In this document: one piece after another, positions 1-3,141 of the stretch | How the letters are laid out: every line of letters starts with the position of its first letter | Position numbering within the stretch: position 1 is the first letter of the stretch | DNA from: a virus | Lineage: Duplodnaviria > Heunggongvirae > Uroviricota > Caudoviricetes | Length of the DNA: 3,141 bases | Reading direction: 5' to 3' (one strand) | IMG/VR virus record: IMGVR_UViG_2563366894_000005 | Translations under genes and position numbers: made by a program | Notes under the pieces: model-generated | Told to the model about the DNA's origin: nothing | The model's input: only the letters and a program-made list of their open reading frames with translations | Database searches by the model: none

Positions 1-282
1 ATGAAAGATTTAACACTCAAATTTGCCGACAGGGCCGACTTTTCGGCCTTTATGGATAGCACTGGCTATTATGATGACGAGTCGATGCAGGATGATATTC
101 TTATTGACGTGATAGGTAACGTGTACAAAGAAACCGGAGAACTGACTGAAGATGGCGAACCGGTATGTGTTAAGGAAGACGGATATTTTGTAAACGTGCG
201 CATCATTAATGATTCGCAAATATCGTCATTATTCGATGAATACGTGGTTGCTGTTGAGCATCAACTTCGTGGCTGGATGTGA
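1..282 (+). CDS. Hypothetical small acidic protein (93 aa), first gene of a tail-fibre operon
   Basis: Complete ORF from ATG at 1 to TGA at 280-282. Its stop overlaps a GAGGA Shine-Dalgarno (281-285) placed 6 nt before the ATG of the next gene at 292, which implies translational coupling. Composition by my count is 13 Asp + 8 Glu against 7 Lys/Arg, so net charge is strongly negative. I recognise no family motif. The upstream promoter and RBS lie outside the window. Confidence 0.6.
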   Translation: MKDLTLKFADRADFSAFMDSTGYYDDESMQDDILIDVIGNVYKETGELTEDGEPVCVKEDGYFVNVRIINDSQISSLFDEYVVAVEHQLRGWM

Positions 283-291
283 GGAAGAAAA

Positions 292-1332
292 ATGGCTACA
301 TCGACAGTAATTCCTGATGACATCAAAACGCAAAAATCCGACGTTAGCAAATTAAAAAACGATCAAGGAAGCTACGCAACAAAATTATATGTAGACAGCA
401 AAGATGAAATCGTTGGTGACTGGTCTGCTTCATGGTATCAGCAGGTATTGCCAACTAGCGGAGCTATATTTGGGAGAAAACTCCGCTCAACTCACAGGAC
501 GGCAGGTGTTGAGGATGCGTATTGCGAACTATACCTCAAAAAATGGATAGACAGTCCAGGTAACGCAATGGCGCGCCTTAACCTGAACGATAACGGGACA
601 AACATTTGCTGGGACTTTACCAACCTTTATGGCGGTACGATGATTTTTCCCGGTGACAGCGGATACCTCAAAATGGGTAACTGCCTTATGTCATACAGCA
701 AGCGTGGAAGTAACGCGCTTATTAAATTTGATTACACCGACACATTACAGATCAAATATGCCAATCATGGGTCAACCATGACATTAAACACACAGGGAAC
801 CGCTTATGCTGGTGTTACTGCTCAATTGTGGGGCAACACCAGCCGTCCTGTTGTTTATGAAGTCGGTGTTGATGGTGGCGCTTATATGTTCTATGCGCAG
901 AAAAATACCGATAACACCTATATGTTAAGCGTTAATGGTGCATGTCATGCCACCGCATTTAACCAGCATTCCGACCGGGATCTGAAAGACAACATTCAGG
1001 TGATCGATAATGCAACCGACCGCATCCGTAAAATGAACGGCTATACATACACGCTTAAAGAAAACGGTATGCCCTATGCTGGTGTCATTGCACAGGAAGC
1101 TCTGGAAGCAATCCCAGAAGTTGTAGGTTCCGCAATGAAATATCAGGACGGTGCAAGCGGATCGGAAGGTGAAGAAGGTGAACGTTATTACACAGTAGAT
1201 TATTCTGGTGTTACTGGCTTGCTTGTTCAGGTAGCCAGAGAGTCAGACGACAGAATAACAGCACTGGAAGAAGAAAACGCAGAATTAAGACAAAGATTAT
1301 CTGCAATTGAGGCGGCGCTTGCGTCTAAATAA
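292..1332 (+). CDS. Phage tail fibre / receptor-binding protein with C-terminal peptidase-S74-type intramolecular chaperone (autoproteolytic) domain
   Basis: 346-aa ORF with SD GAGGA 6 nt upstream. Residues ~227-346 carry the hallmarks of the endosialidase / T5 L-shaped-fibre chaperone domain as I know them: 'SDRDLKDNI' (candidate nucleophile Ser227 at nt 970-972, general-base Lys232), 'GVIAQEALEAIPEVV', 'YTVDYSGVTGLLVQ', then a coiled-coil tail 'ITALEEENAELRQRLSAIEAALASK'. Residues 1-226 are Gly/Asn/Thr/Tyr-rich, as expected for a receptor-binding region. Family assignment is by motif recognition, not search. Confidence 0.85.
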   Translation: MATSTVIPDDIKTQKSDVSKLKNDQGSYATKLYVDSKDEIVGDWSASWYQQVLPTSGAIFGRKLRSTHRTAGVEDAYCELYLKKWIDSPGNAMARLNLNDNGTNICWDFTNLYGGTMIFPGDSGYLKMGNCLMSYSKRGSNALIKFDYTDTLQIKYANHGSTMTLNTQGTAYAGVTAQLWGNTSRPVVYEVGVDGGAYMFYAQKNTDNTYMLSVNGACHATAFNQHSDRDLKDNIQVIDNATDRIRKMNGYTYTLKENGMPYAGVIAQEALEAIPEVVGSAMKYQDGASGSEGEEGERYYTVDYSGVTGLLVQVARESDDRITALEEENAELRQRLSAIEAALASK

Positions 1333-1338
1333 TATTAA

Positions 1339-1361
1339 GGGGCCGAGCGCCCCGTTTTATT
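1339..1361 (+). terminator. Putative weak rho-independent terminator / attenuator after the tail-fibre gene
   Basis: GGGGC (1339-1343) pairs with GCCCC (1349-1353) around a 5-nt loop, followed directly by GTTTTATT (1354-1361). It starts 7 nt after the fibre stop codon. The stem is only 5 bp, so read-through into the next gene is likely. Confidence 0.35.
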
Positions 1362-1374
1362 GGGTAGGATGAAA

Positions 1375-1668
1375 ATGGATATAACACCTTTCCTTCATGC
1401 GCTTTGTGCTGTGGCTGCGCAGCTACTGATTGGTCTTTTTACCGGGAACTGGGCTTACGGGGCGATAGCCGGTTGTACGTTCTTCATTGCGCGTGAACAC
1501 ACCCAGGCAGAATATCGCTGGATTGAAATGTTCGGGCATGGCAAGCGAATGAATATGCCGTGGTGGGGCGGTTTTGATCCGCGCGCGTGGGATGTGGCAA
1601 GCCTGATGGATTTTGCTGTGCCGGTGGTGGCGTGTCTGCTGGTCTGGCTGTTGGTTAATCGTGGGTGA
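1375..1668 (+). CDS. Small hydrophobic membrane protein (~97 aa, two predicted transmembrane helices), unknown function
   Basis: The track ORF (1360-1668) begins at TTG. I place the start at ATG 1375 because AGGA (1366-1369) sits 5 nt upstream; ATG 1369 is the alternative. Hydrophobic segments are 'FLHALCAVAAQLLIGLFTG...AYGAIAGCTFFIA' and 'VASLMDFAVPVVACLLVWLLV', separated by an aromatic/basic loop 'REHTQAEYRWIEMFGHGKRMNMPWWGGFDPRAWD'. Local GC is about 47-60% in the stretches I counted. Confidence 0.6.
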   Translation: MDITPFLHALCAVAAQLLIGLFTGNWAYGAIAGCTFFIAREHTQAEYRWIEMFGHGKRMNMPWWGGFDPRAWDVASLMDFAVPVVACLLVWLLVNRG

Positions 1669-1678
1669 AAAAAGGTGA

Positions 1679-1807
1679 GCTGTATATGCAACGGAGGAAG
1701 AAACTCCGTTGCTGGAAGCCTGGAAGAAGTATCGGGTGTTGCTGAACCGTGTTGATACATCAACTGCACCTGATATTGAGTGGCCTACGAACCCTGTCAG
1801 GGAGTAA
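1679..1807 (+). pseudogene. C-terminal remnant of a lambda-Tfa-like tail fibre assembly gene (no start codon, ~42 codons)
   Basis: The frame is open only from the TGA at 1676-1678 to TAA at 1805-1807 and translates to '[42 protein letters not shown]'. This closely matches the C-terminus of phage lambda Tfa as I recall it (...[32 protein letters not shown]). There is no in-frame ATG and the N-terminal ~150 codons are absent. By position it corresponds to the tfaD relic of K-12 DLP12 (recalled synteny, not verified). Confidence 0.75.
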
Positions 1808-1820
1808 TCATTGGGATTAT

Positions 1821-1855
1821 GCCGCAGCACGTCTTAAGCAAGAACGTGCTGCGGT
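1821..1855. terminator. Conserved hairpin between convergent genes (candidate bidirectional terminator / RNA stabiliser)
   Basis: Perfect 11-bp inverted repeat: CCGCAGCACGT (1822-1832) and ACGTGCTGCGG (1844-1854) around an 11-nt loop that itself contains the palindrome CTTAAG. It lies between the Tfa-remnant stop (1807) and the minus-strand methyltransferase stop (1862-1864). The T-run at 1865-1870 is 10 nt from the stem, so this is not a canonical intrinsic terminator on either strand. Confidence 0.4.
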
Positions 1856-1861
1856 TGGATG

Positions 1862-2530
1862 CTATTTTTTCCCTGAAGCGGAAAACATTACTACAGTACC
1901 TTGAACCTTGGTTTTAACATTCTCGAAATGCTCTGAGAGTATATGTGTTAAGCCTTCTTCGGAATCTTTTGTGTTTGAAAAGATGCCTTTCTGATTGTAA
2001 ATGCGCATCAGTTTTTGACCGAAGCTATTGTGCACAACTCCATCGCCAAGAATTGTGGCTCCGTATAGAGTTCCATCGTCAGTTAAGGCCTGCGCCGCAT
2101 TGCGTATTACACAGCTTTTTGTAGATATATTTCCAGGCAGGCAGTGAAGAAGGTAAAACATGGAAATGGAATCAAATTGACCATGTAACGCCGCGGGATA
2201 AGGTTCAAAAACATCATGGCTAATTTTATGTTTAATTTTTGATTCCCCAGCCCTTGTAGATGCCGCGTTCAGGCTAGCTTCGTTCAAATCCATTAAAGAT
2301 ATCAGACTACTCTCAGGTACGTGAGTAAGGTAAAACCCAGTTCCAACACCAATATCCAGATGGTTGTTACCTACATGTTCCAGAAAGTGTGGAAGAAGGT
2401 GTTCCTTTGTAGGACATCCCCATGCAAGCCGATTTGATACTCCCAAAACCCACCAGTCATAAAGCTTTAGGGTAAGTGGTGTGTAAATTTTAGCCCCATC
2501 ATCTGTGTTTTTTTTCATTGATTTCACCAT
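1862..2530 (-). CDS. ybcY: Class I SAM-dependent methyltransferase (small-molecule/protein type, not a DNA methyltransferase); prophage cargo gene
   Basis: 222-aa minus-strand ORF. Motif I 'LDIGVGTG' (Gly-rich SAM loop), an acidic residue ending the next strand ('LMDLNE'), and a hydrophobic motif-II-like 'DSISMFYLLHCL'. No DPPY/NPPY or PCQ DNA-methyltransferase motifs. Sampled GC is about 37-40%, against about 47-60% in the neighbouring fibre and membrane genes. The maximal ORF starts at ATG 2530-2528, but the in-frame ATG at 2518-2516 has a GGTGA SD 5 nt upstream and is the more likely start (218 aa). The symbol is given because position between two tfa relics matches my recollection of ybcY in K-12 DLP12. 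Confidence 0.85.
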   Translation of the reverse strand: MVKSMKKNTDDGAKIYTPLTLKLYDWWVLGVSNRLAWGCPTKEHLLPHFLEHVGNNHLDIGVGTGFYLTHVPESSLISLMDLNEASLNAASTRAGESKIKHKISHDVFEPYPAALHGQFDSISMFYLLHCLPGNISTKSCVIRNAAQALTDDGTLYGATILGDGVVHNSFGQKLMRIYNQKGIFSNTKDSEEGLTHILSEHFENVKTKVQGTVVMFSASGKK

Positions 2531-2586: not shown

Positions 2587-2856
2587 ATGCTGCCGCAGCA
2601 TAGCGATATTGAAATAGCCTGGTATGCTTCGATACAGCAGGAGCCGAATGGCTGGAAGACCGTCACCACACAGTTCTACATCCAGGAATTCAGTGAGTAT
2701 ATTGCGCCACTGCAGGATGCTGTAGATCTGGAAATCGCAACGGAGGAAGAAAGATCGTTGCTGGAGGCATGGAATAAATATCGGGTATTGTTGAATCGTG
2801 TTGATACATCAACTGTACCTGATATTGAGTGGCCTGCAAATCCTGTCAGGGAGTAA
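2587..2856 (+). CDS. tfaX: Truncated tail fibre assembly protein (Tfa family, 89 aa), tfaX-like
   Basis: ATG at 2587 with AAGGGG SD (2577-2582) 4 nt upstream. The C-terminal half '[54 protein letters not shown]' matches the lambda Tfa C-terminus from memory. The N-terminal ~40 aa are unrelated to lambda Tfa, and the protein is under half the ~194-aa lambda length. Position downstream of the methyltransferase matches tfaX of DLP12 as I recall it. Confidence 0.8.
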
Positions 2857-2906
2857 TCATTGGGATTATGCCGCAGACACGTCGTATGCAGGAACGTGCT
2901 GCGGTT
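2728..2906. repeat. Direct repeat copy B (tfa 3' end + hairpin), ~180 bp
   Basis: Partner of 1679-1856 in the same orientation. Together they bracket the methyltransferase gene, its promoter region and the unique 5' part of the tfaX-like gene. Confidence 0.8.
2871..2904. terminator. Second copy of the conserved hairpin, 3' of the tfaX-like gene (putative terminator)
   Basis: Left arm CCGCAGACACGT (2871-2882, one extra A as a bulge) and right arm ACGTGCTGCGG (2894-2904). The loop (CGTATGCAGGA) differs from copy 1 while the stem is kept. It is followed by a T-rich stretch, TTAGTTTGTGAGCTTT. Confidence 0.35.
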
Positions 2907-2970
2907 AGTTTGTGAGCTTTCGATAGTGGTTGTTATTTTTGCCCTTATTTGTTCCGGAGGCCATGGTTCA

Positions 2971-3141
2971 ATGGTCCGTCTGCCCCCTGTGGTGATGTCA
3001 GCAAAATCAGCCACTGCGCGAACCACAATAGCCCGGGAAGATGCTGAAGATCACCAGGTAAAGCTGTCAGCGCAGAAACTGGAAGAACTGCTCGCATCAA
3101 TGGTTAAGGATGAGGTTGATCGCAATGATGGGATTTATTGA
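2971..3141 (+). CDS. Hypothetical small protein (56 aa from ATG 2971; maximal ORF from TTG 2860 is 93 aa)
   Basis: Open frame ending at TGA 3139-3141. The first in-frame ATG is at 2971, with GGAGG (2956-2960) 10 nt upstream; another in-frame ATG is at 2995. The C-terminal part, 'EDAEDHQVKLSAQKLEELLASMVKDEVDRNDGIY', is charged and probably helical. I recognise no family. The TTG-start extension would overlap the hairpin at 2871-2904, so I disfavour it. Confidence 0.35.
   Translation: MVRLPPVVMSAKSATARTTIAREDAEDHQVKLSAQKLEELLASMVKDEVDRNDGIY

What the first reader, a model, noticed from the sequence alone, without database searches (positions are those of the whole stretch)
1375..1668. Small two-helix membrane protein directly after the receptor-binding gene: candidate superinfection-exclusion or receptor-masking factor
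Genes placed immediately after phage receptor-binding genes often protect the lysogen from related phages (for example T5 Llp and phi80/N15 Cor blocking FhuA; T4 Imm is a small membrane protein blocking DNA entry). This ~97-aa protein has two strong hydrophobic helices and a Trp/Arg-rich loop ('MPWWGGFDPRAWD'). It is separated from the fibre gene only by a weak hairpin, so it is probably co-transcribed, and its local GC resembles the fibre gene rather than the low-GC cargo gene. Its stop codon also marks the exact start of homology to tfa (about 1676-1679), so it lies at a recombination junction. I do not recognise its family; the proposed function is inference from position and topology.
Basis: inference. 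Interest (0 to 1): 0.55.

Follow-up and report, generated by a model that had tools for sequence, protein, structure and literature searches.

The report
Conserved small membrane protein behind tail-fibre genes
This is a real, very widespread but uncharacterised 97-residue inner-membrane protein that temperate phages carry directly behind their receptor-binding genes; it cannot be an outer-membrane receptor mask, it may still protect the cell at the inner membrane, and its function is untested.

Summary
The ORF at 1375-1668 is a genuine gene (RBS AGGA at 1366-1369; dN/dS 0.11-0.31). It encodes a 97-aa member of PHROG 1443 ('unknown function'; UniRef name 'Ybl63'). It occurs in 1906 of 5426 complete E. 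coli genomes, with a median of 2 copies.

AlphaFold gives three helices (pLDDT 92), not two, plus a nearly invariant ~35-residue mini-domain outside the membrane (RE-x-x-QAEYRWI...R-x-NMPWWGGFD...W...D...P).

In lambdoid, P22-like, P2/VP882-like and phage-plasmid genomes the gene sits directly 3' of the receptor-binding genes.

Receptor masking is not supported:
- The protein is an integral inner-membrane protein.
- It stays 57-96% identical behind unrelated fibres and spikes.
- It has chromosomal orthologues in housekeeping synteny (ligA-X-prmA) in Sphingomonadales.
- It matches no known exclusion, holin, Gtr or defence family.

Two virulent phages keep only decayed remnants behind their spike genes. 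In a P22-like phage the gene is a separate unit after the tailspike terminator, in the gtrABC slot. It therefore behaves like an accessory (moron-type) gene.

Best reading: it acts on a conserved host inner-membrane component. Exclusion at the inner membrane remains possible but untested.

The parts
1..282 (+). 93-aa acidic protein (PHROG 1361, unknown function). In lambdoid relatives it always lies between the side tail fibre gene and the next gene.
292..1332 (+). 346-aa tail fibre with a C-terminal Peptidase_S74 intramolecular chaperone domain. It is an optional module, absent in ev243 and 1H12, where the 97-aa gene follows the 93-aa gene directly.
1339..1353 (+). Weak GC hairpin (5 bp) followed by GTTTTATT, between the fibre gene and the target gene.
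   Evidence: -12 kcal/mol, z -0.9
1366..1369 (+). Shine-Dalgarno-like AGGA, 5 nt before ATG 1375.
   Evidence: read directly
1375..1668 (+). CDS of the 97-aa three-helix inner-membrane protein (PHROG 1443 / 'Ybl63').
   Evidence: (E 5.8e-59, full length)
1384..1443 (+). Helix 1 / TM1 (residues 4-23), with near-invariant His8 and Gln16.
1450..1533 (+). Helix 2 (residues 26-53). The first half is hydrophobic (TM2). The second half is the polar motif R40-E41-H42-T-Q44-A45-E46-Y47-R48-W49-I50.
1492..1590 (+). Nearly invariant extramembrane mini-domain (residues 40-72): REHTQAEYRWI..FG.GKR.NMPWWGGFDPRAW.
   Evidence: conserved also in the chromosomal Sphingomonad clade
1594..1662 (+). Helix 3 / TM3 (residues 74-96) with conserved Asp79 and Pro83. 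Its C-terminal part varies between alleles, and homology breakpoints fall here.
1679..1807 (+). Remnant of a tfa (tail fibre assembly) 3' end. It is a direct repeat of 2728-2856.
1812..1870 (+). Strong hairpin followed by U6. It is the likely terminator of the unit that contains the 97-aa gene, and it faces the convergent methyltransferase gene.
   Evidence: -28.3 kcal/mol, z -5.2
1862..2530 (-). Class I SAM-dependent methyltransferase (cargo, PHROG 2132), bracketed by the two tfa 3' copies.

Best explanation
The ORF encodes a 97-aa inner-membrane protein. It has a TM1-TM2 hairpin, then a conserved ~35-residue Trp/Arg/Glu-rich mini-domain outside the bilayer, then TM3. It belongs to a large uncharacterised family.

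In temperate phages of Proteobacteria it is the first accessory (moron-type) gene behind the receptor-binding genes, whatever the type of fibre or spike. It marks the border with a variable cargo region.

It does not mask an outer-membrane receptor. Most likely it works in the inner membrane on something conserved across Proteobacteria, such as a lipid or lipid-linked precursor, an ion, or a conserved membrane machine. The working parts would be the invariant mini-domain and a polar cluster at the membrane boundary. That cluster comprises His8, Arg40/Glu41 and Asp79, which lie at the same depth according to helix register.

The pay-off for the phage is probably a receptor-independent change of the envelope or entry route of the lysogen or infected cell. 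That change may include exclusion of incoming phages.

Shown: that the gene is real, its fold, the conservation pattern, the genomic position, the decay in virulent phages, and the cellular orthologues. Inferred: the inner-membrane location, the common depth of the polar cluster, the host target, and the benefit.
For: - Real and constrained: 575 clusters at 90% identity and 445 at 50% identity, all stand-alone proteins of about 90-130 aa. dN/dS is 0.11-0.31.
- Fold: three helices, pLDDT 92.3.
- Conservation: H8, R40, E41, Q44, A45, E46, W72 and P83 are invariant or nearly so across 29-55%-identical members. The chromosomal Sphingomonad clade keeps the same motif.
- Position behind unrelated receptor-binding proteins: phage_tail_N Stf, P22 Head_binding tailspike, TSP1/beta-helix spike, pectate-lyase spikes, a Laminin_G_3 fibre, an Mtd-like DGR target. 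Identity to the window protein stays at 96% (1H12), 80% (Gally) and 57-61%.
- Accessory character: in Gally the gene follows a strong tailspike terminator and a 190-nt AT-rich spacer with its own AAGGAG, in the gtrABC slot. Variable cargo follows it: sitABCD, a methyltransferase, RT-SLATT, or the prophage end.
- Decay: Escherichia phage 6947 and a Kuttervirus keep only frameshifted, stop-containing remnants behind their spike genes.
- Cellular orthologues in conserved housekeeping synteny...creD-DLH-ligA-X-prmA..., with X starting 3 nt after ligA.
Against: - No experiment, and no homologue with a known function.
- Topology is unresolved. The raw K+R count puts the loop in the cytoplasm for the phage clade. 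The basic turn and C-tail of the Sphingomonad clade suggest the opposite.
- In lambdoid, phiHAP-1 and Aeromonas phages the gene is tightly coupled to late tail genes (gaps of -4 to +12 nt), and no promoter was found. Expression may therefore be late rather than lysogenic.
- Adjacency to receptor-binding genes may only reflect that these genes end the late operon, a favoured site for morons.
- Aeromonas jumbo phages keep an intact diverged copy.
Confidence: 0.4

Rival explanations
1. Classical superinfection exclusion at the DNA-entry step, like T4 Imm, P22 SieA or HK97 gp15. The inner-membrane protein would bind the ejection or tape-measure proteins, or the entry channel, of incoming phages and stop genome injection.
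For: - It is a small polytopic inner-membrane protein in an accessory slot next to receptor-binding genes.
- P22 SieA is likewise a three-TM inner-membrane protein (PMC10883804).
- The gene decays in virulent phages.
- It is very common in prophages.
Against: - The same protein is carried by siphoviruses, podoviruses and myoviruses. Their injection machineries are unrelated, whereas SieA and gp15 are specific for one type.
- Its mini-domain is invariant also in chromosomal Sphingomonad orthologues with no phage context.
- There is no similarity to SieA, to PHROG exclusion families or to PADLOC models.
Confidence: 0.2
2. Receptor masking or modification at the cell surface, matched to the adjacent fibre.
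For: Position directly behind receptor-binding genes, as for cor, llp, gtrABC and oac.
Against: - There is no signal peptide or lipobox, and Cys11 is not conserved.
- There are three membrane helices and at most a ~35-residue exposed loop.
- The protein is 57-96% identical behind unrelated receptor-binding proteins, so it cannot be matched to a particular receptor.
- Orthologues exist in Sphingomonadales, an order that by general knowledge lacks LPS.
- There is no similarity to GtrA.
Confidence: 0.04
3. A late lytic-cycle function tied to the tail genes, such as a membrane-bound helper for fibre or spike maturation, for virion release or for lysis timing.
For: - Gaps of -4 to +14 nt to upstream tail genes in lambdoid, phiHAP-1, Aeromonas and other loci.
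- The gene lies between a fibre and a DUF4376 chaperone-like gene in L030, between an Mtd-like gene and Avd in L036, and between a tailspike and the holin genes in L083.
- An intact copy exists in Aeromonas jumbo phages.
Against: - The upstream receptor-binding proteins are unrelated.
- Virulent phages whose spikes share N- or C-terminal segments (36-64% identity) with prophage spikes carry only dead remnants.
- In Gally the gene lies behind the late terminator.
- Cellular orthologues have no tail genes nearby.
Confidence: 0.1
4. No protein function: a conserved DNA 'joint' that merely serves as a recombination linker between fibre modules and cargo.
For: Homology breakpoints cluster at both ends of the gene.
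Against: - Protein-level conservation reaches Alpha-, Beta- and Deltaproteobacteria where synonymous sites are saturated.
- dN/dS is 0.11-0.31.
- The AlphaFold model is confident.
Confidence: 0.02

Closest known systems
P22 SieA (inner-membrane superinfection exclusion protein)
   Same: Prophage-encoded inner-membrane protein with three predicted TM helices, encoded near the tailspike region (PMC10883804).
   Different: SieA has 162-164 aa and shows no sequence relation (hhalign probability 0.3%). It is specific for P22-like ejection proteins. The present family occurs in all three tail morphotypes and also in bacterial chromosomes.
T4 Imm and HK97 gp15 (small membrane proteins that block DNA entry)
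   Same: Small size, membrane location and accessory character (my own knowledge, and for gp15).
   Different: No PHROG, Pfam or structure match. By my own knowledge Imm has two TM helices and gp15 one. Neither has a conserved polar mini-domain or cellular orthologues.
Cor (phi80/N15/T1) and T5 Llp
   Same: Gene placed next to the receptor-binding genes.
   Different: Those are secreted outer-membrane lipoproteins that bind FhuA. This protein has no signal peptide or lipobox, is polytopic, and does not vary with the receptor-binding protein.
gtrABC / oac O-antigen conversion cassettes of P22-like phages
   Same: Same genomic slot (tailspike - X - attP/int) in the P22-like phage Gally, and a separate transcription unit. 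Gtr proteins also have cellular relatives.
   Different: This is a single 95-97-aa gene with no glycosyl- or acyltransferase partner. It shows no similarity to GtrA.
DgkA-type miniature membrane enzymes (121 aa, three TM helices, trimer)
   Same: This is a conceptual precedent only. A protein of about 100 aa with three TM helices and invariant acidic, basic and His residues at the membrane boundary can be an enzyme when it oligomerises (my own knowledge).

Membership tests
PHROG 1443 (unknown function; UniRef 'Ybl63') | Full-length match to the family profile | tested here: met
   E 5.8e-59, residues 1-96 against profile positions 1-96 of 97. UniRef name.
Cor / Llp receptor-blocking lipoproteins | N-terminal signal peptide with a lipobox cysteine, and outer-membrane location | tested here: not met
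   The N-terminus is MDITPF with no basic n-region. Leu precedes Cys11, and Cys11 is not conserved (C in 45% of close homologues, L or I elsewhere). Three hydrophobic helices are present.
Cor / Llp receptor-blocking lipoproteins | Specificity matched to the phage's own receptor | tested here: not met
   The protein is 57-96% identical behind unrelated fibres and spikes.
P22 SieA family | Sequence or profile similarity to SieA | tested here: not met
   hhalign probability 0.3%. No PHROG exclusion family was hit.
P22 SieA family | Blocks DNA injection of a defined phage group | not testable with these tools
   This needs plating-efficiency, potassium-efflux or DNA-entry assays.
T4 Imm | Sequence similarity to the ~83-aa, two-TM Imm protein | tested here: not met
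   Only PHROG 1443, 34165 and 9191 matched. The model has three helices.
GtrA flippase-like conversion proteins | Similarity to GtrA (four TM helices, PF04138) and partner gtrB/gtrC genes | tested here: not met
   hhalign probability 0.2%. There is no Pfam hit. Downstream genes vary and include no glycosyltransferase.
Holins / pinholins | Match to a holin family, and placement in the lysis cassette as the only holin | tested here: not met
   There are no holin hits in Pfam or PHROGs. In L083 two separate holin genes, an endolysin and a spanin follow it.
Known anti-phage defence systems (PADLOC) | Match to any PADLOC-DB model | tested here: not met
   0 families at E <= 1.
Heme-handling WWD-domain proteins (CcmC/CcmF) | Profile similarity across the Trp-rich WWD loop | tested here: not met
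   hhalign probabilities 0.4% and 0.3%. One Pfam hit in 36 members, at E 0.14.

The most novel reading that the evidence does not exclude
The family could be a so far unrecognised pan-proteobacterial miniature membrane enzyme or ligand-binding module of about 95 aa. On this reading its active site is formed by His8, Arg40/Glu41, Asp79 and the invariant Trp-rich loop. Temperate phages of all three tail morphotypes would have captured it as a generic, receptor-independent way to remodel the envelope or close the inner-membrane entry route of their host.
Probability: 0.25. Interest if true: 0.75.

Novelty: new variant of a known kind. Interest (0 to 1): 0.5.

Why it matters
About one third of complete E. 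coli genomes carry this gene, usually in two or more prophages, and nobody knows what it does.

It is one of the most conserved small proteins in the otherwise highly mosaic tail-fibre region. It is shared by lambdoid, P22-like and P2/VP882-like phages and by phage-plasmids. Free-living Sphingomonads have chromosomal orthologues.

If it excludes phages independently of the receptor, it would affect host-range prediction and phage therapy against ExPEC lineages. If it is a tiny membrane enzyme or lipid-binding module, it would add a new fold and function to envelope biology.

It is also a practical landmark. It marks the 3' border of exchangeable receptor-binding modules and the start of a cargo hot spot (sitABCD, a methyltransferase, RT-SLATT, ompT).

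Tried and rejected
- Homology to known families: Pfam, NCBIfam, PADLOC and PDB sequence searches, with the single protein and with a 36-member profile. Only weak PhoR N-terminal hits appeared (4 of 36 members, best E 0.0035), which I judged to be similarity between two-helix hairpins.
- WWD heme-handling idea, prompted by 'PWWGGFD..W.D': hhalign against E. coli CcmC and CcmF was negative.
- SieA and GtrA relationship: negative.
- A conserved operon partner: all-against-all clustering of neighbours in 71 loci found no gene that travels with it outside the lambdoid Stf-93aa module.
- Promoter in front of the lambdoid copies: none found by the consensus scan.
- Topology from charge bias: contradictory between clades.
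- Literature: no paper for FIG00639861, phrog_1443 or Ybl63. The papers on SNIPE and on P22 SieA do not treat this gene.
The scan with A1 worked.

Full report
**Where the window comes from.** The window is 98.6% identical to Escherichia phage 2G7b, a lambdoid Nesevirus. It holds these features:
- a 93-aa gene (1-282, PHROG 1361);
- a 346-aa tail fibre with a Peptidase_S74 chaperone domain (292-1332);
- the 97-aa ORF under study (1375-1668);
- a remnant of a tfa 3' end (1679-1807);
- a convergent class I SAM methyltransferase (1862-2530, minus strand);
- a short tfa gene (2587-2856);
- a fibre-like fragment (2860-3141).

**Observation.** The ORF is intact, with AGGA 5 nt before ATG 1375.
- The family alignment fixes the start at 'MD(I/L)(T/S)P'. 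The 2G7b record uses an in-frame ATG two codons upstream.
- The spacer to the fibre gene holds only a weak hairpin (-12 kcal/mol, z -0.9). A strong hairpin followed by U6 lies 150 nt downstream, at 1812-1870 (-28.3 kcal/mol, z -5.2). In this phage the gene is therefore most simply read as the last coding unit of the fibre transcript.
- Two details of the finding do not hold. The protein has three helices rather than two (4-23, 26-53 and 74-96; pLDDT 92.3). Its GC content (54.4%) is about ten points above that of the fibre gene (44.5%) and of the methyltransferase (41.1%).
- The tfa homology begins 10-20 nt after the stop codon. Homology breakpoints with other phages cluster at both ends of the gene. 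The junction remark is therefore right.

**The family.**
- The protein matches PHROG 1443 ('unknown function') over its full length (E 5.8e-59). It matches nothing in Pfam, NCBIfam, PADLOC or PDB.
- It has 575 relatives at the 90% clustering level and 445 at the 50% level. All are stand-alone proteins of about 90-130 aa and all are labelled 'hypothetical'. One UniRef entry calls it Ybl63.
- It is present in 1906 of 5426 complete E. coli genomes, with a median of 2 and a maximum of 7 copies.
- dN/dS against E. coli and other alleles is 0.11-0.31.
- Conservation is concentrated in the polar second half of helix 2 and in the following loop: R40-E41-(H42)-x-Q44-A45-E46-Y47-R48-W49-I50, G-x-G-x-R58-x-N-M-P-W-W-G-G-F-D68, and W72. 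His8 and Gln16 in helix 1, and Asp79 and Pro83 in helix 3, are also conserved.
- In an antiparallel hairpin with its turn at residues 24-25, residue 8 faces residue 41, and Asp79 lies a few residues into helix 3. The polar residues therefore sit at one depth beneath the conserved loop. This is an inference from helix register.
- No solved or predicted viral structure resembles the model beyond generic helical bundles.

| Phage or locus | Position of the gene |
|---|---|
| Lambdoid phages and E. coli prophages | J-(lom)-Stf-93aa-[optional S74 fibre]-X, with 9-12-nt gaps |
| P22-like Gally | After the tailspike and before int, where P22 has gtrCBA |
| phiHAP-1 (a myovirus) | Overlaps the tail fibre assembly gene by 4 nt and precedes the sheath gene |
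| A 39.7-kb phage contig (L083) | Pectate-lyase tailspike-X-holins-endolysin-spanin-int |
| A Citrobacter prophage (L086) | J-tailspike-X-end of prophage |
| Comamonas and Pigmentiphaga (L036, L037) | Between an Mtd-like gene and the Avd gene of a diversity-generating retroelement |
| Desulfovibrio, Halomonas and Leclercia prophages | Follows spikes or fibres of other kinds |

The receptor-binding proteins upstream are unrelated to each other. X stays 96% identical (1H12), 80% (Gally) or 57-61% identical to the window protein.

**What this excludes.** A blocker matched to the neighbouring fibre's receptor should vary with that fibre, and this protein does not. It also has no signal peptide or lipobox, and it is built almost entirely of membrane helices. 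The Cor/Llp model is therefore not supported.

**Accessory character.**
- In Gally the tailspike gene ends with a strong terminator (-16 kcal/mol). A 190-nt AT-rich spacer and an AAGGAG site then precede X. This is a separate unit in a classical conversion slot.
- Behind X the content varies: sitABCD, a methyltransferase, RT-SLATT, or host DNA.
- Two virulent phages, Escherichia phage 6947 and a Kuttervirus, carry only frameshifted, stop-containing remnants of X directly behind their spike genes. Segments of the 6947 spike resemble prophage spikes: its N-terminal 130 aa at 64% identity, and its C-terminal ~180 aa at 36%. Those prophage spikes are followed by intact copies of X.
- X therefore travels with receptor-binding modules but is not needed to make them. 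This argues against a chaperone role.
- Against a purely lysogenic role, most non-P22 contexts show tight coupling to late genes and no detectable promoter. Aeromonas jumbo phages also keep an intact diverged copy.

**Cellular relatives.** A second large clade (552 clusters at 90% identity) is chromosomal in Sphingomonadales. It lies in the conserved synteny mutY-nudC-...-creD-DLH-ligA-X-prmA(-)-...-sdhCDA-recN, with X starting 3 nt after ligA.
- Other alphaproteobacterial copies lie next to a DAHP-synthase-like gene, an FtsK-like gene or a cyclopropane-fatty-acid synthase gene.
- This clade keeps the same invariant mini-domain.
- Whatever X binds or does is therefore common to Sphingomonads and enterobacteria. 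By general knowledge Sphingomonads have no LPS. That speaks against a phage-protein target and against an O-antigen-specific function.

**Mechanism.** I commit, at about 0.4, to the following. X is an accessory inner-membrane protein that acts on a conserved host membrane component through the invariant mini-domain and the boundary polar cluster.
- The benefit would be a receptor-independent change of the envelope or entry route.
- A classical Imm/SieA-like injection block is the main rival (0.2).
- A late tail-related function (0.1), receptor masking (0.04) and a pure recombination linker (0.02) follow.
- Topology could not be settled from charge bias. In either orientation nothing reaches the outer membrane.

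**Novelty and score.** The kind of thing is familiar: an accessory membrane gene behind receptor-binding genes. This family differs in several ways:
- it has no relative of known function;
- it does not vary with the type of fibre;
- it spans all three tail morphotypes;
- it has cellular orthologues.

I found no paper on it. I rate it a new variant of a known kind, with interest 0.5. It is abundant and cleanly testable, but nothing here demonstrates a function.

Noticed in passing
window 1679-1856 and 2728-2906: The 3' end of tfa and its terminator hairpin occur twice as a ~90% identical direct repeat. The two copies bracket the minus-strand SAM methyltransferase (1862-2530). The cargo gene looks inserted, together with a new tfa copy, by recombination inside tfa.
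   Followed up: partly
window 1-282: A 93-aa acidic protein (PHROG 1361, no Pfam match) always lies between the side tail fibre gene and the next gene in lambdoid relatives, with a constant ~10-nt gap. A ~95-aa gene occupies the same place in Comamonas (L014). Its function is unknown.
   Followed up: partly
window 292-1332: The 346-aa S74 fibre and its weak hairpin form an optional insertion between the 93-aa and 97-aa genes. It is present in 2G7b, Tritos and some E. coli prophages, and absent in ev243, 1H12 and IHE3034.
   Followed up: yes
L079 ~4001-4159 (Escherichia phage 6947); L081 ~4001-4156 (Kuttervirus KFSST3): These virulent phages carry unannotated, frameshifted and stop-containing remnants of the 97-aa gene directly behind their spike genes. 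This suggests that receptor-binding modules are exchanged together with part of this gene.
   Followed up: partly
L036 and L037, 5947-6691: In Comamonas nitrativorans and Pigmentiphaga the homologue lies between an Mtd-like gene (PHROG 2889) and a bAvd gene, inside what looks like a diversity-generating retroelement cassette.
   Followed up: no
L075, L076, L078 (gene at 8001-8306, 4807-5112, 8001-8279): In Sphingomonas genomes and metagenome contigs the chromosomal orthologue lies 3 nt behind ligA and is convergent with prmA, in a housekeeping neighbourhood with no phage genes.
   Followed up: partly
L087-L090; L001-L003: The DNA directly 3' of the 97-aa gene is a cargo hot spot. It holds sitABCD, a SAM methyltransferase, a reverse transcriptase with a SLATT protein, and, further along, an alpha/beta hydrolase and ompT.
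   Followed up: partly
window 2587-2856 and 2860-3141: The 89-aa tfa product matches only the C-terminal part of the Caudo_TAP profile (positions 75-130 of 131). The following ORF, whose predicted start is a TTG codon, matches tail-fibre PHROGs 7703 and 1141 only over residues 34-93. Both look like rearranged fragments.
   Followed up: no
L089 3501-3788: In a decayed E. coli prophage with portal and tail pseudogenes, the 97-aa gene itself carries an internal stop.
   Followed up: no
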